Source: Narcine bancroftii
Lineage: Eukaryota
Assembly: GCF_036971445.1 (NCBI RefSeq)
Contig: NC_091472.1
Coordinates: 298,282,001-298,346,000 of the forward strand
Direction of reading: 5' to 3'
Length of the DNA: 64,000 nt
Shown here: positions 8,090-52,970 of the stretch, piece by piece
How positions within the stretch are numbered: the stretch's first letter is position 1
Layout: every line of letters starts with the position of its first letter
Position numbers and translations under genes: made by a program
Notes under the pieces: generated by a model
The model's database searches: none
Told to the model about the DNA's origin: nothing
What the model saw: only the letters and a program-made list of their open reading frames with translations

Positions 8090-9058
8090 AGCCAGCTCTT
8101 CAGCGCTTGACGTCCTGCTTTGCGGAAACTGCCAAAATGTTTGGCCTGGAAGTCAGCCTGAAGAAAACTGAGGTCCTCCATCAGCCAGCTCCCCACCATG
8201 ATTACCAGCCCCCCCACATCTCCATCGGGCACACAAAACTCAAAACGGTCAACCAGTTTACCTATCTCGGCTGCACCATTTCATCAGATGCAAGGATCGA
8301 CAATGAGATAGACAACAGACTCGCCAAGGCAAATAGCGCCTTTGGAAGACTACACAAAAGAGTCTGGAAAAACAACCAACTGAAAAACCTCACAAAGATA
8401 AGCGTATACAGAGCCGTTGTCATACCCACACTCCTGTTCGGCTCCGAATCATGGGTCCTCTACCGGCACCACCTACGGCTCCTAGAACGCTTCCACCAGC
8501 GTTGTCTCCGCTCCATCCTCAACATCCATTGGAGCGCTTACATCCCTAACGTCGAAGTACTCGAGATGGCAGAGGTCGACAGCATCAAGTCCACGCTGCT
8601 GAAGATCCAGCTGCGCTGGATGGGTCACGTCTCCAGAATGGAGGACCATCGCCTTCCCAAGATCGTGTTATATGGCGAGCTCTCCACTGGCCACCGTGAC
8701 AGAGGTGCACCAAAGAAAAGGTACAAGGACTGCCTAAAGAAATCTCTTGGTGCCTGCCACATTGACCACCGCCAGTGGGCTGATAACGCCTCAAACCGTG
8801 CATCTTGGCACCTCACAGTTTGGTGGGCAGCAACCTCCTTTGAAGAAGACCGCAGAGCCCACCTCACTGACAAAAGGCAAAGGAGGAAAAACCCAACACC
8901 CAACCCCAACCAACCAATTTTCCCCTGCAACCGCTGCAATCGTGTCTGCCTGTCCCGCATCGGACTTGTCAGCCACAAACGAGCCTGCAGCTGACGTGGA
9001 CTTTTTTTACCCCCTCCATAAATCTTCGTCCGCAAAGCCAAGCCAAAGAAAGAAAGAA
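8090..9058 (+). mobile_element. Young 5'-truncated RTE-clade LINE, copy 1
   Basis: Uninterrupted 295-aa frame (FGLEVSLKKTE, FTYLG, LLFGSESW, QLRWMGHV, LYGEL, CxxC...HxxxC); (GAAA)n tail; TSD agctttgcaa at 8073-8082 and 9059-9068. Confidence 0.95.
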
Positions 9059-18678: not shown

Positions 18679-18858
<180 letters not shown>

Positions 18859-21638: not shown

Positions 21639-22273
21639 TAGGTACTCCCTGACTTGCAACCTATGTATGCAACTTGTATCCATCCGCATATACAACCAAT
21701 TTTTTTTTTAAATATTGTTTTTGACAAACTATTACAGAGATACAGGGCATGTAAGAGCCAAGATGTGCGTACTTACTTTGTTAGTTGATGTCCCGGGGTC
21801 CGTAGGCTGGGCGCAGCCATCTTAATTTCTGCATACATGCGCGGTGGGTTTGCGTATTAGAGTTCAGTTGGCGCATGCGCGAGAGTTAAGGGCCTGAATT
21901 TAATATCGTTAGAGTGCTTAATTCTCACACATGCGCCTACCAAACTCCAAAACTTGAACCCACTATGCATGCACCACCTGTAGGCTCGCACATGTGCAGA
22001 GGAATCAAGATGGCCGCACCCATCCTACGGACTCTGTGATGGCGACTAACAAGGTAAATGTGGTCCAAAATGTGGAAAGATTTGCCAAAGTTGATTGTCA
22101 AATTCAGGAAGCTTTAAGTTGTTATCATCAAATCTATGATGAAAAAAATGATTAAAAAGTTTGCTTTAAGATTTCAGTATTCCATATGTGCAGGCAAAAT
22201 TCCAACTTGCATCCATTTCAAGATAAGACCAATACTTTGGTCCCAATTACAGTTGTAAGTAGGGGAGTACCTG
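21639..22273. mobile_element. Tigger/pogo-like non-autonomous DNA transposon with an internal palindrome
   Basis: TIRs (t)aggtactccctgacttgcaac / gttgtaagtaggggagtacctg, TA on both sides. Confidence 0.75.
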
Positions 22274-22340
22274 TACTTAAACTACTGCCTCCACCCATCT
22301 TCTCAAGAAGTGCATGTCAATTCTCAGGTATTGTGTTCTT

Positions 22341-24225
22341 TTTTTTAAAAAAATTATTTTTCACACTATGAACCATATTAACCAAAATACACATGAACAT
22401 TTCCCTCTTGAATATACCCAGTGTCATTTTCTCCCATTTCCCCCCCCTTCCTTCCCTCCCTCCTTCCCACCCCCCTCCCTACCCACTAAACATTCAACAT
22501 ATGCAATACAATAAACCATTAAACAATGTCATCACACAATGAAAATAAACAAGAAAATTGTGTAATCTACTGTTACACACTGGGTCAGTTCATTTTGTCT
22601 TCTCATTCTGTCAGTTTAGAGGGTGGAGGTCTGCGGTAGGCCCTCTCTGTTGTGTTCCATGTATGGTTCCCAAATTTGTTCGAATACTGTGATGTTATTT
22701 TTTAAATTATATGTTATTTTTTCCAATGGAATACATTTATTCATTTCTATGTACCATTGCTGTACTCTCAGGCTCTCTTCTGATTTCCAGGTTGACATTA
22801 TACATTTTTTTGCCACCGCTAAGGCTGTCATAATAAATCTTTTTTGTGCTTCATCCAAATTGAGACCTATTTCTTTACTTCTTATATTTCTTAGAAGAAA
22901 GATCTCTGGATTTTTTGATATGTTGCTTTTTGTGATTTTATTTAATACCTGATTTAGATCTTCCTAAAACTTTTCCATTTTCTCACATGCCCAAATTGCA
23001 TGTACTGTTGTTCCCATTTCCTTCTTACAGTGAAAACATCTATCTGATACTGTTGGGTCCCATTTATTTAACTTTTGGGGCGTGGTATATAGCCTGTGTA
23101 ACCAATTATATCAATAAAAGAATTACATAAGAAATTGAAGGAATATGGAGAAGTATCGGGGTACAAGATCAACGCAAATAAAAGTGAATCGATGCCAATA
23201 AATAATGCTGATTTCACCAAGTTTAAATGGCAAACACAAGCAATCAGATACCTAGGTATTAGACTAGATAATAATCTAGGTCATCTATACAAATTATATT
23301 ATCAGCCATTAATGAAGAAATTACAAGATGACTTAGAACATTGGAAAGATTTACCACTAACACTGATAGGAAGGGTAAATTGCATTAAAATGAATATCTT
23401 CAATCGTTACCAATTCCCTTAACAGAGAAATTCTTCAATGAGCTAAAGAAAAGAATAAGGAAATTCTTATGGAAAGCGGGGGAAACTGAGGATAGCACTA
23501 GATAAATTAACAGAATGGTACAAACAAGGGGGCTTACAGCTACCAAACTTTAAGAATTATTATAGAACAGCACAATTAAGATATCTATCAGATTTTTATC
23601 AAACAAGGGAAAAACCAGATTGGACCAGGTTAGAGCTAGATAAAATAGGGGAGAAGGTACCAGAACATATACTTTATAAGTGGGATGAAAAGCTGGTGCA
23701 ACATAGAAGTTCACCAGTACTGCACCATCTGCTCAACATTTGGGAGAAGATTCAAGTAGAAAGGAAAAAACAAATTACCAACCTCCAAAATTATTATTGA
23801 CGCAAAATCAACTAATTCCTTTCACAATGGATAACCTTCCCTTTCGAGAATGGCAGCAAAAAGGGATCAAAAGAATAGAAAATTGTTTTTTGGGAAATAA
23901 TTTATCTTTTGAACAAATAAAGTACAAATATGGTATAACTCACGGTACAATGTTTGCATACCACCAACTGAAAACCTACTTGAAGGACAAATTGGGAAGC
24001 AGGCTGAGGTTACCAGAAGGAAGCAGCTTTGAATATGTGATTACAGACACAATGATAATTAAAAGATTTATAACAAACATGTACATCAAGCTGCAAGAGA
24101 AAGAGAATGATGAAATAAGCTGTAAACCCAACCAAAAGTGGGAACAAGATCTAAACTTAAAGATGAAAAATGGGAAAAGCTATGCTCTGGAACTATGAGA
24201 AATACAATAAAAACGAGGTTATGCA
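22341..24225 (-). mobile_element. L1-clade LINE with 5' inversion (3' part on minus 22341-23110; inverted part on plus 23111-24225)
   Basis: 15-bp TSD aggtattgtgttctt (22326-22340, 24226-24240); motifs YGEVSGYKIN, YLGI, LPLTLIGRVNCIKMNI, GGLQLPNFKNYY on +, ALAVAKKCI...IWEPY on -. Confidence 0.93.
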
Positions 24226-24336
24226 AGGTATTGTGTTCTTGAAGTGAATATGCATTGTAAGAGCTTCACATGAATTGTTTGTAAATATTGTCCTTTATGT
24301 ACAATAATTTTTTTTTCATGTTCCACCTATGCTCAG

Positions 24337-24527
24337 GATTTGATGAAAACTTTGATGTTCAGGGTGAACTCATCCTTCAAGATACCTTCCAAGTGTGGGA
24401 CCCCAAATCACTCATTCGGAAAGGACGGGAACGACACTTGTTTCTCTTTGAATTAGCTTTGATTTTCAGCAAAGAGATCAAGGATTCCTCAGGACATAGC
24501 AAATATGTTTACAAACACAAGTTACTG
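24337..24527 (+). CDS. KALRN: Kalirin PH1 exon: (G)FDENFDVQGELILQDTFQVWDPKSLIRKGRERHLFLFE...YVYKHKLL
   Basis: ctcag / gtgag, 191 nt, phase 1 to 0; embedded in ORF 24288..24575. Confidence 0.97.
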
Positions 24528-28095: not shown

Positions 28096-28441
28096 TTTTT
28101 TTTTTTTTTTTTCTTCTTGGACTGCCTAAAGAAATCTCTTGGTGCCTGCCACATTGACCACCGCCAGTGGGCTGATAACGCCTCAAACCGTGCATCTTGG
28201 CGCCTCACAGTTTGGCGGGCAGCAGCCTCCTTTGAAGAAGACCGCAGAGCCCACCTCACTGACAAAAGGCAAAGGAGGAAAAACCCAACACCCAACCCCA
28301 ACCAACCAATTTTCCCTTGCAACCGCTGCAATCGTGTCTGCCTGTCCCACATCGGACTGGTCAGCCACAAACGAGCCTGCAGCTGACGTGGACTTTTTAC
28401 CCCCTCCATAAATCTTCGTCCGCGAAGCCAAGCCAAAGAAA
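28096..28441 (+). mobile_element. Young RTE LINE, copy 2 (3' about 320 bp) with extra T-tract at the 5' junction
   Basis: Near-identical to 8727-9050; TSD aattaatggc at 28086-28095 and 28442-28451. Confidence 0.93.
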
Positions 28442-41384: not shown

Positions 41385-43665
41385 AAAATACTCTTCATCT
41401 TGAGGTTGAGGATGATGGTCTTTGTTCCTATGGGCTCTTAAGTGGTTTATGAGTCCAATCTTCGAAAGTGGCCCACCGAGCAAAGGTGCCTGTGCATGTG
41501 TTTGTTTTACGTGCTCTAATATTGCATTCCAAGAAGCACATGATACTTCACAAATCAGCTATCTAGTTCCAATGGCATGAAATCATAACATTTGGAGCAG
41601 ATGGATTTGAGACAGCCTTCAACCAACCGCCTTCACAGACATTAAGCCTTCAACCGCCTTCACAGACATTAAGCCTTCAACCACCTTCACAGACATTAAG
41701 CCTTCAACAATTCAGACATTAAGCCTTCAACCGCCTTCACAGACATTAAGCCTTCAACCGCCTTCACAGACATTAAGCCTTCAACCGCCTTCGCAGACAT
41801 TAAGCCTTCAACCGCTTTTGCAGACATTAAGTCTTCAACCACTTTCGCAGACATTAAGCCTTCAACCGCCTTCGCAGACATTAAGCCTTCAACCGCCTTC
41901 ACAGACATTAAGCCTTCAACCACCTTCGCAGACATTAAGCCTTCAACCGCCTTCGCAGACATTAAGCCTTCAACCGCTTTCGCAGACATTAAGCCTTCAA
42001 CCGCCTTCGCAGACATTAAGCCTTCAACCGCCTTCGCAGACATTAAGCCTTCAACTGCCTTCGCAGACATTAAGCCTTCAACCGCCTTCGCAGACATTAA
42101 GCCTTCACCCGCCTTCGCAGACATTAAGCCTTCAACCGCCTTCGCAGACATTAAGCCTTCAACCGCCTTCGCAGACATTAAGCCTTCAACCGCTTTCGCA
42201 GACATTAAGCCTTCAACCGCCTTCGCAGACATTAAGCCTTCAACCGCTTTCACAGACATTAAGCCTTCAACCACCTTCACAGACATTAAGCCTTCAACAA
42301 TTCAGACATTAAGCCTTCAACCGCCTTCACAGACATTAAGCCTTCAACCGCCTTCACAGACATTAAGCCTTCAACCGCCTTCGCAGACATTAAGCCTTCA
42401 ACCGCTTTTGCAGACATTAAGCCTTCAACCACTTTCGCAGACATTAAGCCTTCAACCGCCTTCGCAGACATTAAGCCTTCAACCGCCTTCACAGACATTA
42501 AGCCTTCAACCACCTTCGCAGACATTAAGCCTTCAACCGCCTTCGCAGACATTAAGCCTTCAACCGCTTTCGCAGACATTAAGCCTTCAACCGCCTTCGC
42601 AGACATTAAGCCTTCAACCGCCTTCGCAGACATTAAGCCTTCAACCGCCTTCGCAGACATTAAGCCTTCAACCGCCTTCGCAGACATTAAGCCTTCAACC
42701 GCCTTCGCAGACATTAAGCCTTCAACCGCCTTCGCAGACATTAAGCCTTCAACCGCCTTCGCAGACATTAAGCCTTCAAACTGCCTTCGCAGACATTAAG
42801 CCTTCAACCGCCTTCGCAGACATTAAGCCTTCAACCGCCTTCGCAGACATTAAGCCTTCAACCGCCTTCGCAGACATTAAGCCTTCAACCGCCTTCGCAG
42901 ACATTAAGCCTTCAACCGCCTTCGCAGACATTGCCTTCAAAAATTCACAGACATTAAGCCTTCAACCGCCTTCACAGACATTAAACCTTCAACCATTCAC
43001 AGACATTAAGCCTTCAACCATTCACAGACATTAAGCCGTCAACCATTCACAGACATTAAGCCTTCAACCGCCTTCAAAGACATTAAGCCTTCAACCATTC
43101 ACAGACATTAAGCCTTCAACCATTCACAGACATTAAGCCTTCAACCATTCACAGACATTAAGCCTTCAACTGCCTTCGCAGACATTAAGCCTTCAACTGC
43201 CTTCGCAGACATTAAGCCTTCAACCGCCTTCGCAGACATTAAACCTTCAACAATTCACAGACATTGAGCCTTCAACCATTCACAGACATTGAGCCTTCAA
43301 CCGCCTTCACCGACATTAAACCTTCAACCGCCTTCGCAGACATTAAGCCTTCAACAATTCACAGACATTGAGCCTTCAACCATTCACAGACATTGAGCCT
43401 TCAACCGCCTTCACAGACATTAAGCCTTCAACCATTCACAGACATTAAGCCTTCAACCATTCACAGAGATTAAGCCTTCAACCACCTTCACAGACACTAA
43501 GTTTGAGGTAACTTTGTCTGCCTGTTCCAACATTGGCTGGATTGTTCTTTGTCAGGGACCTCACCCTCGACCTTACCACCATGGGTGGCCCTACAGGAGC
43601 ATAGTTCCTGACGGCATCGATCTCAGGACCACACAAGCTTCTCCTCTACAAAGTGACAATCTACA
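41385..43665 (-). mobile_element. Non-autonomous bipartite RTE-derived element (Bov-A-like 5' UTR + RTE-like 3' end) hosting a minisatellite
   Basis: Minus strand starts gattgtcactttg...aagcttgtgt...ctatg...agggccaccca...ctgacaaa, resembling RTE/BovB 5' UTRs; ends catcatcctcaacctcaagatgaagag. Confidence 0.65.
41613..43500. repeat. 27-bp minisatellite, about 70 units, consensus GCAGACATTAAGCCTTCAACCGCCTTC
   Basis: Directly visible; includes shorter (23-26 bp) variants and a 590-bp higher-order duplication. Confidence 0.98.
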
Positions 43666-44451: not shown

Positions 44452-46677
44452 CAGTGTTCTCCATAATGTTTGGGACAAAACATTTTTTCCTTTTTTTTCC
44501 CTGTGCTGCACAGTTTCAAGTTTGTAATCAAACAATTCAAGAGACTGAAGTGCATATTCCAGATTTTATTCAAGGTTATTTGTATACATTTAGGTTTTAC
44601 CATGTAGAAATTACAGCACATTTTATACATAGTCCCCTTATTTCAGAGCACCATAATATTTGGGACAAAGTAATGGTATTTATTAAAGTACTAATATTTA
44701 AAAACCTCACAAAGATAAGCGTATACAGAGCCGTTGTCATACCCACACTCCTGTTCGGCTCCGAATCATGGGTCCTCTACCGGCACCACCTACGGCTCCT
44801 AGAACGCTTCCACCAGCGTTGTCTCCGCTCCATCCTCAACATCCATTGGAGCGCTCACACCCCTAACGTCGAGGTACTCGAGATGGCAGAGGTCGACAGC
44901 ATCGAGTCCACGCTGCTGAAGATCCAGCTGCGCTGGATGGGTCACGTCTCCAGAATGGAGGACCATCGCCTTCCCAAGATCGTATTATATGGCGAGCTCT
45001 CCACTGGCCACCGTGACAGAGGTGCACCAAAGAAAAGGTACAAGGACTGCCTAAAGAAATCTCTTGGTGCCTGCCACATTGACCACCGCCAGTGGGCTGA
45101 TAACGCCTCAAACCGTGCATCTTGGCACCTCACAGTTTGGCGGGCAGCAACCTCCTTTGAAGAAGACCGCAGAGCCCACCTCACTGACAAAAGGCAAAGG
45201 AGGAAAAACCCAACACCCAACCCCAACCAACCAATTTTCCCTTGCAACCGCTGCAATCGTGTCTGCCTGTCCCGCATCGGACTGGTCAGCCACAAACGAG
45301 CCTGCAGCTGACGTGGACTTTTTACCCCCTCCATAAATCTTCGTCCGCGAAGCCAAGCCAAAGAGAGAGAAGAGAATATTTAGTACTTTGTTACATATCC
45401 CTTGCATGCAATGCTTAAAGTCTGTGATTTCAAAGATACCATCAGGCTTGGAACATCTTCTCTGGTGATCCTCTGCCAGGCCTCTACTGCAGCCACCTTC
45501 AGCATGTTTAAAGGATTTTTCCCCTTAGGTTTTTCTCTTCAGTATATGGAAGGCACGCTGAATTGGATTTAAATTGGATGACTGATTTGGCCATTCAAGA
45601 ATTTTCCAGTGTTTAGCTTTGAAAAGCTCCTTTGTTGCTTTAGCAGTATGTTGGGATCATTGTCTTGCTGTAGGATGAAGTGCCATCCAATGTATTTAGA
45701 GGCATTTGCTCAAACTTGAGTAGATAATAAGATGTTTCTAACTCTTCAGAATTAATTTTGCTCCTGCCATCAGCAGTTAGATCATCAATGAAGATAAATG
45801 CTCCAGTACCTGTGGCAACCTTCCATGCCCAGGCCATAACACTTCCACCACAATGATACAGGTTAATCTTAGTCTCATCTGTCCACAAGACCTTTTTTAC
45901 AAAAATTTGCAGGCTCTTTTAAATACTTCTTGGCAAACTGTAATCTGACCATCCTGTTTCTGTGGCTAACTAGTCGTTTGCAATTTGCATATTAACCTCT
46001 ATATTTCTATTCATGAAGTCTTCTGCAAATGGAAGCCATTGGCACATCCACACCTACCTCGTGAAGAGTGTTTCTGATCTGTCAGACTGGTATTTGGGGA
46101 TTTTTCTTCATTATGATGAAAGTTCTTTTGTCATCAGCAGTGGAGGGTCTTCCTTGGCCCACCAGTCCTTTTGCCATTACTGAGCTCACCAGAATGCTCT
46201 TTCTTCTTAATGGTTTTCTAAACAGTTGATTTGGGTAATCCTAAAGTTTAGACTCTGTCTCTTCCTGCTTTATTCTTGTTTTTAAGCCAAATAATCGCTT
46301 ATTTGATTTTCATCGGCACAACTCTGGTCCTCGTGTTGAAAAATGGCAATTACAGACTCCTAAAGTTACCAAAAGCTTTGAAGCAAGTTGAGCTCTCTTA
46401 TACTTGTACCAATGAAGCAATTAAACATACCCAAATACTCACAAACAACTGTGAAGCCAAATGTCCCAAACATTATGATGCCCTCAAATGGGGGGGAACG
46501 ATGTCGCTTCTGGGGGTTTGTGCAGTAGTTTCTACATGTATGTAAATAACTTTGAATAAAATATTGAATGTGCACTTTAATTACATGACAATTGTTTGAT
46601 AACAAATTTAAAACTATGGAGCATAGGAGCAAAAAAGGAAAAAAGTGACCATGTCCCAAACATTATGGAGGGCACTG
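44452..46677 (-). mobile_element. IR/DR-type Tc1 DNA transposon, defective
   Basis: TIRs cagtgttctccataatgtttgggaca / tgtcccaaacattatggagggcactg-TA; inner direct repeats at about 44651 and 46462; transposase remnant WTDETKINL..GGSVMAW (45640..45888). Confidence 0.9.
44701..45374 (+). mobile_element. Young RTE LINE, copy 3, inserted in the Tc1
   Basis: Near-identical to 8383-9050; TSD aatattta at 44693-44700 and 45375-45382; GA-rich tail. Confidence 0.95.
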
Positions 46678-48405: not shown

Positions 48406-48561
48406 ATTGCAGTTACTTATGTTAATGATCCTCTTAAATTCTTGCTAATAATGAAAAACATCCAGATAAAGGAACTCTCTTTATGGCCATAAGGAATAAA
48501 GGTTTTAATTGGACAAAGGTAAATTTTACTCAGCTTAGTTCGGCTGGGAGTCGGAGGAGGA

Positions 48562-50155
48562 CAATAGACAATAGGAGCTGGAGTAGGCCATTTGGCCCGT
48601 CGGGCCAGCACCGCCATTTTAGATCATGGCTGATCATTACCATCAGTACCCTTTTCCAGCCTTATCCCCATAACCCTTAACTCCGTTACCCACAAGAGTC
48701 TTATCTAACTCTCTTTTGAACATAGTCAGCGAATCCGCCTCTACCACCCTCTGTGGCAGAGCATTCCACAGATTCACACTTCTCTGGGTAAAAAAATGCT
48801 TTCTCATCTCCGTCCTAAAGGGCCTACCCTGTATTCTAAAACTATGCCCTCGTCTCCCCCATCATTGGGAACAAGTAATCAGACTTCACCTTGTCTATCC
48901 CCCTGATGATTTTGTATACCTCAATCATGACCCCCCTCATCCTTCTAAACTCCAATGGATACAAGTCCAGTTTTTCTAGCCTTGCTGCATATGACAACCC
49001 TGCCATCCCTGAAACTAACCTTGTAAATCTGCGCTGCACACCCTCTATAGCTAGTATGTCCTTCCTCAAGTTTGGAGACCAGAACTGGATGCAATACTCC
49101 AGGTGGGGTCTCACCAGGGCCCTGTATAACTGCAGAAGGGCGTCTCTGTTCCTATACTCCAATCCCCTCTTTATGAAAGCCAATATTCCATTTGCCTTCT
49201 TCACAGCTTTCAGAACCTGCATGCTAGCCTTCAGTGACCGGTGAACAAGTACACCCAGATCCATTTGCACTTCCCCACTCCCTAGCTTGTCTCCATTTAA
49301 ATAATACTCAACTTTCCTATTACTTCCCCCAAAATGAATAACCTCACATTTGTTCACATTGAAATTCATCTTCCATTTAGCCGCCCACTCCTCCAGCCTG
49401 TCCAAGTCCATCTGCATTTTCCTTACATCCTCCTCACACCCCACACCGCCACCCAGTTTAGTGTCATCTGCAAATTTGCTCTTGTTATTTATAATCCCCT
49501 CATCCAAATCATTAACATAAATTACAAACAACTGAGGACCCAACACCGATCCCTGAGGCACTCCACTCGTCACATCCTGCCATTCTGAAAAAGACCCATT
49601 TACTCCAACCCTTTGTTTCCTATCTCTTAACCAATTTCCTATCCATGTCAGCACCTTACCTCCAATACCATGCTCCCTGATCTTGCCCACTAGACTCCCG
49701 TGCGGTACCTTATCAAAGGCCAAATACACCACATCCACTGGCTCTCCCGAGTCCACCTTCTTTGTCACATCCTCAAAAAATTCCAGAAGGTTAGTCAAGC
49801 ATGACTTACCCTTAAGGAATCCATGCTGACTAGCCCTTATACTATTATTACTGACTAAGTGTTCTGCTATTTCTCCTTTTATGATGGACTCCAATATCTT
49901 CCCCACCACTGATGTCAGGCTAACCGGTCTATAATTTCCCGTTTTCTCCCTCCCTCCTTTCTTAAAAAGCGGCACCACATCAGCCACTCTCCAATCCTCA
50001 GGGACCTCCCCGGAATCTATGAAACTTTGGAAAATGTCGACCAGTGCCTCCACAATTTCCATAGCCACCTCTTTAAGCACCCTAGGATGCAGCCCATCAG
50101 GCCCTGGGGATTTATCAGCCCTCAGTCCCAACAATTTACTCATAACCTCCTGCTT
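48562..50155 (-). mobile_element. CR1 RT half with 3' UTR and (ctattgt)n tail
   Basis: 433-aa ORF: KSPGPDGLHPRVLKE, QHGF.KGKSCLTNL, SGVPQGSVLGP, KFADDTKL, LEYCIQFWSP. Confidence 0.95.
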
Positions 50156-52970
50156 CTGGAGAGATCAGAGGAGGAGGAGCTTGCTGAAAGTGAGTCAGAG
50201 GAGGAGGAGCTTGATGAAAGTGAGGCGAAGGTAAGCTATTAAAGTCGGGGGCTTACCGGGGCTTGGGCCTACTTGGTTCGGCTGGGAGTCGGAGGAGGAG
50301 CTTGGAGAGAGTCGGGCTGTGAATCAGAGGAGGAGGAGCTTGGTGAAAGTGACAGGGTTAATTGGTCAAGGGGCCAATAAAAGGAGTGAAAGGGGAGGGA
50401 GCGGCCAGCGAGGAGTGGCTCAGTGAGTGAGTGGAGCAGTGAAGGAGTGAGACTTCCTGGTTTTGGCTTATCAGGAGAAGGAGTGAGACTTCCTGGCTTT
50501 GGCTTATCAGGCTTCGGCAAAAGCAGGCAAGGAGAAAAGGTAAGCTGAGTTATTTGCCTTCATGTTCAGAGTCATGCCAATAGGGTTAGTGCTCTGTACT
50601 GGGTGTCGGATGTGGGAACAATGGGTGACCTCCACCCTCCCAAATACCCACATCTGCACCAGGTGTACCGAGATGCAGTTACTAAGGGAGCGAATTAGGG
50701 ATATGGAGTTGCAGATTGATGACCTGCGGCTTGTAAGGGAGAATGAGGAGTTAATCGACTCAACTTTCAGGGCGATAAATACTCCAGAACCCATGTCAGG
50801 TAAGTGGGAAACCGTCATGGGGGGGAAAGAAAAATGCGAGAAAAACGGAGAGCACACCAGTGACTATCCCACTCAGCAACAGTTACGTTGTGTTGGATTC
50901 TGTTGAGAGAGATGACTGGACAGAAGATGGCCACGGGCACCAGGTCAATGGCAATGAGGCTGGCAGAGTGGTGCAAAAGAAAAGGAAAAGGAGAAATGCA
51001 GTAGTTACTGGGGACTCCATTGTCAGAGGTACGACAGGAGGCTCTGTGAGCCAGGTAAGTATACCCGCATGGTGTGCTGCCTCCCTGGTGCAAGGGTACG
51101 AGATATCACAAATTGGGTCCAAAATATTCTGAGAGGAGAGGGAGAGCAGCCTGATGTCTTGGTACATGTGGGTACAAAAGATATTGACAAGAAAAGGGAG
51201 GAGGTAATGAAAAGGGATTACAGTGAGCTGGGACGAAAGCTGAAAGACAGGAATGCTAGGGTGGTGATCTCGGGATTACTACCTGTTCCAAGTGCAAGTG
51301 ATGAAAAGAATGTAAGGATAAGGAAAATGAACATGTGGCTGAGGTGCTGGTGTACAAGGCAAGGATTTGGCTTCTTGGATCATTGAGATCTCTTTTGGGG
51401 AAGGCATGATCTTTACAAGAGGGACGGGTTGCACCTAAATCCAAAAGGTGTCAACATTTTGCCAAGTATGTTTGGTACAGCAGTGGGGCAAGGTTTAAAC
51501 TAATTTGGCAGGGGTATGGGAACCAGAGTGATAGGAAAAAGGGAAGGGAAGATAAAGTAATGGGCAGGAAAAGTAAAATAGGAAAAGTAATGTTGGGAGG
51601 AGAAAGTAAAAAATCAGATGGTGCAGTGAGTTTTCGGGTCAATGATAGTGTTAAGAAAATTACAAAGAAAAATAGTGGGCAGAAAAATCAAAAGAAAAGG
51701 TTACAGAAGTCACGAGATATTAAAAGGACAAAGAGCATAAGGGCACTTTATCTGAATGCCCGCAGTATTAGAAATAAGGTTAGTGAACATGAGGCGCAAA
51801 TCGGTACCCATGCCTATGATTTGGTAACCATCACGGAAACATGGCTACAAGGTGACCCTAAATGGGAATTAAACTTTCAAGGGTATCAGGTGGTGCAAAG
51901 AGATAGACAGGATGGTAAGGGAGGTGGAGTTGCACTCTTAATCAAAGATGAGCTCCAGGCAGTAGTGAGGAATGATATAAGATCTAATGAGCATAATGTT
52001 GAGTCCATTTGGGTAGAGATAAAGAATAACAAAGGGAAAAAATTATTGGTGGGTGTTATCTATCGCCCACCATATAATAATAGTTTAGTGGCACAGGAAA
52101 TAAATAGAGAGATAAGTGAGGCATGTAATAATGATACGGCAGTCGTCATGGGGGACTTTAACTTCCACATAGATTGGGAAAATCAAGTTAGTCGTGAGAG
52201 TCTGGAAGAGGACTTCATAGAATGCATCCGCGATAGCTTTCTTGAGCAGCATGTTAAGGAACCCACAAGAGAAAATGCTCTCCTGTATCTAGTGTTGTGC
52301 AATGAGATAGGTAGAGTAAATGATATAATAGAGACCATCTGGGAAATAGCGATCATAGTATGATTGAATTTCTCTTTCAGATGGAAGGGGAAGTAGTTAG
52401 ATCTAAAACTAATATATTATGCTTAAACAGGGGTGACTACCATAGGATGAGGGAGGAATTGGGCAGAGTGGACTGGGAACACAGGCTCATTGATGAAACA
52501 GTTGAGGAACAGTGGAAGATTTTCAAAGAAATATTTTGTAATGCTCAACAAAAATATATTCTGGTCAGGAAAAAGGGCAGCAAGGGAGGGAAAAATCAAC
52601 CGTGGTTAACAAAGGAAATAAAGGAGAGTATAAAATTGAAGGTGCAGGTGTACAAAGCTGCAAAGAGCAGTGGGAAACTGAAAGATTGGGAAAACTTTAA
52701 GAGACAACAAGGGGTGACAAAGCGGGTAATAAGAAATGGGGAAAAAGGATTATGAAAGTAAATTGGCACAAAATATAAAAACAGAAAACAAAAAATTTTA
52801 TAAATATATAAAACGGAAGAGGGTGGCCAGAGTTAACATAGGACCCTTGGAGGATGAGAAAGGAAAACTGGTAGCAAAAAATGAGGAAATGGCCGAGGCA
52901 TTAAACAAATATTTTGTGTCAGTCTTCACGGTGAAAGACACGTCCAGCATGCCCAAGTGCGGAGTTAATG
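50156..52970 (+). mobile_element. CR1 5' half: repetitive 5' UTR, ORF1 (CxxC zinc finger/leucine zipper + SGNH esterase) and ORF2 APE endonuclease; ends before the RT
   Basis: CTGC..CTRC..LLRERI; GDSIVRG, CCLPGARV, VHVGT, DGLHLN; LYLNARSIRNK, ITETWL, GGGVAL, IYRPP, MGDFN; last motif LNKYFVSVFT. Confidence 0.93.

What the first reader, a model, noticed from the sequence alone, without database searches (positions are those of the whole stretch)
22326..24240. Clean twin-priming-type 5' inversion in a non-mammalian L1
Seen: one insertion bounded by a 15-bp TSD (aggtattgtgttctt). The 3' part and tail are on the minus strand (22341-23110) and the upstream ORF2 part is flipped onto plus (23111-24225). 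The plus part ends NTIKTRL and the minus part starts YNWLHRLY. By recalled L1 ORF2 consensus these are near-adjacent with only a few nt lost, and there is a short tat overlap at the inversion point. The nick context TTCTT/GA fits L1 endonuclease preference. Established: this is the twin-priming geometry, best documented for mammalian L1. Inference: a probable chondrichthyan L1 lineage uses the same mechanism, so it is either ancient or convergent. The insert ends 96 nt before a KALRN acceptor.
Basis: partly seen in the sequence, partly recalled or inferred. Interest (0 to 1): 0.72.

Follow-up and report, generated by a model that had tools for sequence, protein, structure and literature searches.

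The report
Human-rate L1 inversions in cartilaginous fish
A dead L1 jumping-gene copy in a likely shark or ray genome sits with its front part flipped, and about one in six of its sister copies is flipped the same way, close to the human rate, so this copying accident, likely "twin priming", is not special to mammals.

Summary
One L1 insertion lies between two identical 15-bp target copies, with its 3' 0.77 kb on minus and 1.1 kb of upstream ORF2 flipped onto plus. On sister copies the two arms are 7 nt apart, and they overlap by 3 nt at the inner junction. The neighbouring exon is 97% identical to a shark kalirin.

It is not a one-off. 21 of 124 copies picked by their 3' end alone are 5'-inverted (17%, CI 11-25%; human germline L1 18%). 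Most have long target duplications and microhomology at the outer junction, and some carry the same RNA stretch in both arms, which favours twin priming. A young RTE family also inverts (10 of 90). A CR1 family that leaves almost no long duplications does not (0 of 48). So 'ancient or convergent L1 trait' is too narrow: it likely follows from a long target overhang.

Caveats: this copy has no outer microhomology, its own empty site is untested, and four key older papers were unavailable. The scan noted single L1 and RTE cases in other cartilaginous-fish DNA before; the rates and the CR1 contrast were measured here.

The parts
22326..22340 (.). Target-site duplication, copy next to the tail (15 bp)
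   Evidence: exact, only two copies in the window
22341..22361 (-). Short A-rich tail with an internal T run, as in sister copies
22362..22615 (-). L1 3' UTR; its terminal 35-mer has 986 exact matches in the genome
22616..23111 (-). Sense arm: ORF2 C-terminus with the cysteine-rich motif (zf-RVT hit in sister copies), broken by stops
23109..23111 (.). Inner inversion junction, 3-nt overlap TAT shared by both arms
23109..24225 (+). Inverted arm: ORF2 from 14 codons after the FADD motif to NTIKTRL; ends 7 nt before the start of the sense arm on sister copies; about 50 nt of small internal deletions
24226..24240 (.). Target-site duplication at the inverted end; no microhomology with the L1 RNA here; junction bridged by a short-read contig
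   Evidence: table 8 records 8 and 16
24337..24527 (+). Host KALRN exon (first PH domain), 96 nt downstream; the insertion is in the intron after the exon match at 18733-18813

Best explanation
This is a single, dead, 5'-inverted L1 insertion in a KALRN intron of a likely cartilaginous fish, likely made by twin priming, and 5' inversion is a regular outcome for this family (21 of 124 copies). Shown: the geometry, the target duplication, the adjacent breakpoints and the family rate. Inferred steps: the endonuclease nicked TTCTT/GA; reverse transcription from the tail made the 0.77-kb arm; the second nick 15 nt away freed a 3' overhang before the first cDNA was finished; that overhang primed a second cDNA on the same RNA 7-10 nt upstream of where the first stopped; the two cDNA ends were joined through a 3-nt overlap by host end joining; and RNA upstream of the RT core was lost. 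The route is likely open to any LINE that leaves an overhang of about 9 nt or more in this host, since RTE does it too and CR1 does not.
For: Geometry: in all 21 inverted L1 copies the antisense arm has its 3'-most end at the outer boundary. In 13 of 16 (first sample) that end maps within 35 nt of the start of the sense arm, and in 5 of 5 in the second sample. TSD: 17 of 21 have a duplication of 9 nt or more allowing up to 2 mismatches, read by eye. Outer microhomology of 2 nt or more: 10 of 14 inverted against 3 of 16 truncated copies, Fisher p=0.009, and above chance (binomial p 5e-6 to 1e-3). Same RNA stretch present in both arms: L1 L128 (21 nt) and L074 (11 nt), RTE L234 (about 47 nt) and L247 (12 nt), which needs two syntheses on one template. 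Empty target holds the duplicated word once where the host site is itself a repeat: L1 L047 and L066, RTE L140. Clade contrast: L1 16 of 100, RTE 10 of 90, CR1 0 of 48 (p=0.0015 and 0.015). An exact TSD of 9 nt or more is found in 1 of 48 CR1, and in 9 of 10 inverted against 17 of 80 other RTE copies (p=4e-5). This matches the long-overhang model of PMC4245944.
Against: This copy has 0 nt microhomology at the outer junction, while only 4.6% of human inverted L1s lack it; 3 of 14 sister copies also scored 0. This copy shows a 7-nt loss, not an overlap, so taken alone it cannot separate twin priming from a break-and-flip of one cDNA. For L1 the link between inversion and an exact long TSD is not significant (10 of 16 against 32 of 84, p=0.10). 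Its own empty site was not seen. No contig bridging the inner junction was among the rows shown (table cut). One inverted copy (L127) has no TSD.
Confidence: 0.82

Rival explanations
1. One long first-strand cDNA broke, and host end joining put the freed 5' piece back in reverse. There was no second priming on the RNA.
For: This copy has no outer microhomology and a small loss at the break. Several RTE inner junctions carry short templated additions typical of end joining (L234, L246, L252).
Against: It cannot easily give the same RNA stretch in both arms (L128, L074, L234, L247), nor the excess of outer microhomology over truncated copies.
Confidence: 0.12
2. An ordinary 5'-truncated L1 inserted first and its 5' part was inverted later by DNA repair or recombination.
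For: The family is old enough (about 5-9% substitutions between copies) to carry later deletions and nested insertions.
Against: A later inversion would need one break exactly at the element's 5' end in every case. CR1 copies in the same genome show none in 48, though they are somewhat younger. The very young RTE copies (mostly 92-100% identical) already show it.
Confidence: 0.03
3. Two independent L1 fragments inserted back to back, or an assembly join of two copies.
For: The family has thousands of copies (10,078 first-look candidates), and the inner junction was not shown bridged in short-read contigs.
Against: One TSD pair encloses both arms, the arms are 7 nt apart on a 6-kb element and equally diverged, the outer junction is bridged with no differences by a 527-nt contig, and 21 sister loci repeat the pattern.
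Confidence: 0.03

Closest known systems
5'-inverted (twin-primed) human and chimpanzee L1 insertions (model of Ostertag and Kazazian 2001, not held; seen as described in PMC2912911, PMC12016303, PMC4245944)
   Same: Geometry; long TSD; arms meeting within a few tens of bases with small loss or overlap; outer microhomology; rate 17% against 18.4% of human germline L1. Among copies with an exact TSD, 10 of 42 (24%) against 30.9%.
   Different: Host is a likely cartilaginous fish; the element is a fish-type L1 whose nearest named relatives are teleost ORF2 proteins at 49% or less; it prefers CTT/GA-type nicks; outer microhomology looks somewhat less strict (4 of 15 without, counting this copy, against 4.6%).
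LINE inserts recovered in chicken DT40 cells (PMC4245944)
   Same: Their model ties inversion to a 10-20 nt overhang; one zebrafish Nimb-2 insert was inverted; the short-TSD ZfL2-1 never was, like CR1 here.
   Different: Human L1 gave no inversions in the chicken cells, whereas endogenous L1 and RTE in this non-mammalian germ line invert often.
Fish L1 / vertebrate L1-clade elements
   Same: About 6.0 kb, two ORFs, APE endonuclease, RT, C-terminal cysteine motif, A-rich tail, TSDs of 10-19 nt.
   Different: No report of 5' inversion rates for them was found in the library searched. Ichiyanagi and Okada 2006 and 2008, which may address this, were not seen.

Membership tests
Twin-primed (5'-inverted) LINE insertion | One TSD pair encloses both arms | tested here: met
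   15 bp exact
Twin-primed (5'-inverted) LINE insertion | 3' arm with tail in sense, upstream arm antisense with its 3'-most end at the target | tested here: met
Twin-primed (5'-inverted) LINE insertion | Arms adjacent on the RNA (small loss or overlap) | tested here: met
   7-10 nt lost
Twin-primed (5'-inverted) LINE insertion | Microhomology at the inner junction | tested here: met
   3 nt; 3 nt alone is weak evidence
Twin-primed (5'-inverted) LINE insertion | Microhomology between target end and RNA at the outer junction (usual, not universal) | tested here: not met
   0 nt in this copy; met in 10 of 14 sister copies at 2 nt or more
Twin-primed (5'-inverted) LINE insertion | Empty site holds the target word once | tested here: inconclusive
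   No ortholog or paralog of this site; met for sister copies L047 and L066
Twin-primed (5'-inverted) LINE insertion | Second cDNA made by the element's RT from the top-strand end | not testable with these tools
   Inferred from overlaps in sister copies
L1 clade | RT closest to L1 ORF2p | tested here: met
   Sister copy RT: human L1 ORF2p E 9e-58, R2 8e-11
L1 clade | APE endonuclease, RT and C-terminal cysteine motif in ORF2 | tested here: met
   Exo_endo_phos_2, RVT_1, zf-RVT in sister copies; the three window fragments scanned had no Pfam hit
L1 clade | L1-type ORF1 (coiled coil, RRM, CTD) | tested here: inconclusive
   An ORF1 region exists in full-length copies but gave no significant Pfam or PDB match
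L1 clade | Placement in L1 proper rather than Tx1 on an RT tree | not tested
   No tree with named references was built

The most novel reading that the evidence does not exclude
Twin priming is a general property of apurinic-endonuclease LINEs that leave a target overhang of about 9 nt or more, working at human-like rates in the cartilaginous-fish germ line for both L1 and RTE. This genome would then hold thousands of natural twin-primed junctions in two LINE clades beside a non-inverting CR1 control, which makes the overhang-length rule testable by counting alone, and no such rate would be in print.
Probability: 0.5. Interest if true: 0.6.

Novelty: new member of a known kind. Interest (0 to 1): 0.44.

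Why it matters
5' inversion is treated as a hallmark of mammalian L1, and one cell study found it absent for human L1 in chicken cells. A rate of about 17% for L1 and 11% for RTE, against 0 of 48 for CR1 in the same genome, separates element from host effects. It supports the idea that the length of the target overhang decides whether a second priming happens. It also means that repeat annotation in sharks and rays will split a good share of LINE copies into false pairs. The single copy is inert apart from lying 96 nt from a KALRN splice acceptor; no effect on the gene was tested.

Tried and rejected
Read support for the inner junction: laying four runs on 23050-23170 listed no record with 31 letters on both sides, but 1,734 rows were cut, so this is no evidence either way. 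Only assembled contigs were available, no long reads. Empty site: organisms B and C hold the family but did not cover the right flank, and the last 60 nt of the left flank have no paralog among 40 scored hits. RTE was chosen as a negative control and failed as one. ORF1 gave no family or structure match. Fold-back of one cDNA was rejected because it would give a palindrome at the inner junction, which is not seen. A longer TSD with hidden microhomology was rejected because the bases outside the two copies differ. Complex L1 loci with antisense pieces downstream, nested or distant (L130, L137, L138, L083, L095, L286, L288) were counted as not inverted. In the truncated-copy microhomology count, 10 of 26 copies were dropped because the two bases inside the junction did not match the references, and one more had no reference. 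Papers not held: Ostertag and Kazazian 2001, Ichiyanagi and Okada 2006, Ichiyanagi et al. 2007, Kojima and Okada 2009; Ichiyanagi and Okada 2008 was not requested and was seen only as cited. No supplements were read. The search tool cannot take the phrase with an apostrophe, which weakens all 'not in print' statements.

Full report
Observation. The 15-mer AGGTATTGTGTTCTT is found twice in the window, at 22326 and 24226. Between the copies, the minus strand holds the end of an L1 ORF2, a 3' UTR and a short tail, and the plus strand holds the ORF2 stretch just upstream. A search of the own genome (3.33 Gb) returned many sister copies. In 28 of 29 fetched, the two arms lie in line 7-11 nt apart, and the family text shows that 7 nt are missing here, up to 10 depending on how the shared TAT at 23109-23111 is assigned. 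Both arms are 91-95% identical by substitutions to the same 16 long copies, so they are one subfamily of one age. A 527-nt short-read contig crosses the outer junction with 34 L1 letters and no differences; that sample may be the one the assembly came from. The inner junction was not among the listed rows.

Element and host. Full-length sisters are about 6.0 kb, with endonuclease, RT and zf-RVT domains. The RT matches human L1 ORF2p at E 9e-58 against 8e-11 for R2, and its nearest named relatives are teleost proteins. The exon 96 nt downstream is 97% identical to kalirin of the shark Hemiscyllium and 89% or less to all other listed hits, mammals included; other KALRN exons flank the insertion on plus. 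The host is therefore likely a cartilaginous fish, on the evidence of one 64-residue exon. Earlier scan notes call this genome an electric ray; I did not test that.

How often. I sampled copies by an exact 3'-terminal 35-mer, blind to their 5' ends. The first 100 of 986 hits, all on contig C1, gave 16 inverted copies. All 24 hits of a one-base variant, spread over 11 contigs, gave 5 more. Together 21 of 124, 17% (Wilson 11-25%). Seventeen of the 21 have a target duplication of 9 nt or more by eye with up to 2 mismatches; three have 7-8 nt and one has none. Human figures are 18.4% of germline L1 (PMC12016303, section 8 read) and 30.9% of TSD-flanked L1 (PMC2912911, section 8 read). The like-for-like share here among copies with an exact TSD is 10 of 42.

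Junction signatures. In the first sample 13 of 16 antisense arms end within 35 nt of the start of the sense arm. Outer microhomology of 2 nt or more is seen in 10 of the 14 inverted copies with a usable TSD; two values were corrected by eye for a register shift and one was read. The figure is 3 of 16 for truncated copies (p=0.009). The window's own copy has none. Two L1 and two RTE copies carry the same RNA stretch in both arms. Where an inverted copy landed inside another repeat, paralogues show the target word once (L047, L066; RTE L140). Target sites favour TC/AAG on the top strand (C at -1 in 24 of 40, A at +1 in 37 of 40), which is the context of this copy.

Controls. A young RTE family (65,657 exact 3' hits) was meant as a negative control, but 10 of the first 90 copies are inverted in the same geometry, 9 with an exact TSD of 9-14 nt and the tenth with 12 nt and one mismatch. 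A CR1 family (811 hits) gave 0 of the first 48, and only 1 of 48 has a TSD of 9 nt or more. L1 and RTE each differ from CR1 (p=0.0015, 0.015) but not from each other (p=0.40). Among RTE copies, long TSDs are far commoner in inverted ones (9 of 10 against 17 of 80, p=4e-5); among the older L1 copies the same trend is not significant (p=0.10). The RTE sample comes from a 4-Mb stretch at the start of C1, and only one family per clade was tested.

Mechanism. The twin-priming model (described in PMC2912911, passages) predicts this geometry, small losses or overlaps, and outer microhomology; all three are met by the family. The nicks, the two primings and the end joining are inferred, not observed. 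Break-and-flip of a single cDNA remains possible for this copy, which has a loss and no outer microhomology, but it does not explain the overlaps in sisters. Later inversion and chance pairing are unlikely for the reasons given under rivals. PMC4245944 (passages and section 16 read) proposes that a 10-20 nt overhang is needed and that host factors matter. It saw no inversion for human L1 in chicken cells, none for the short-TSD ZfL2-1 and one for Nimb-2. The L1, RTE and CR1 pattern here fits that model in a natural germ line, and makes 'ancient or convergent in L1' the wrong pair of choices.

What is known. Ten searches turned up no paper giving 5' inversion rates for shark, ray or other fish L1 or for RTE. 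I saw listings and abstract starts for most hits, 40 of 106 for 'twin priming' alone, and passages of PMC5389967, PMC4476161, PMC6007223, PMC11371274 and two preprints. Four older papers most likely to bear on this were not held, a fifth was not requested, and no supplements were read, so absence from print is not established. This scan has noted single inverted L1s in ray-like genomes and inverted RTEs here and elsewhere; these are unchecked notes, read after my counts were made.

Verdict. Real, a new member of a known kind. The copy itself is ordinary for its family. The value lies in the measured human-like rate outside mammals and the clade contrast. Interest 0.44.

Noticed in passing
L141-L170, L201-L260 (RTE family; window copies 8090-9048, 28119-28438, 44700-45363): Very young, very abundant RTE family; 10 of 90 copies are 5'-inverted with 9-14 nt target duplications.
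   Followed up: yes
L234 (G000:C1:4553087 region): An inverted RTE with a second 41-nt RTE 3' stub on the opposite strand at its outer end, giving three copies of the target word; either a second insertion into the duplication or a two-RNA event.
   Followed up: partly
L234, L246, L252 inner junctions: Short added stretches (6-16 nt) copied from nearby sequence at RTE inversion points, of the kind that polymerase theta end joining leaves (recalled).
   Followed up: no
L161, L226: RTE copies in which a piece of the 5' end is joined straight to the last 205-212 nt; possible non-autonomous derivative.
   Followed up: no
L217 5' end: Full-length RTE starts with a long tandem array of a 15-nt unit, over 700 nt in this copy.
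   Followed up: no
window 22341-22361 and most sister L1 tails: Tails are A-T-A runs (A tract, T tract, A tract) of varying length rather than plain poly(A).
   Followed up: no
40 L1 target sites: The family prefers TC/AAG on the top strand (CTT/GA on the nicked strand), unlike the human TTTT/A type.
   Followed up: partly
window 23113, 23177, 23197, 23916, 24206: The inverted arm is sense to KALRN and carries five AATAAA words inside the intron.
   Followed up: no
window 21773-22057: Imperfect nested inverted repeat, repeated in the genome by read depth; probably a MITE.
   Followed up: no
window 48540-52755 (minus): Near full-length young CR1 element, used as control reference.
   Followed up: partly
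window 41611-43034: Long tandem array of a roughly 24-nt unit that gives open frames on both strands.
   Followed up: no
L075, L116: L1 copies with both ends but internal deletions near the start of ORF2 and RT (about 90 nt and 1 kb); L130, L137 and L138 are complex multi-piece L1 rearrangements.
   Followed up: no
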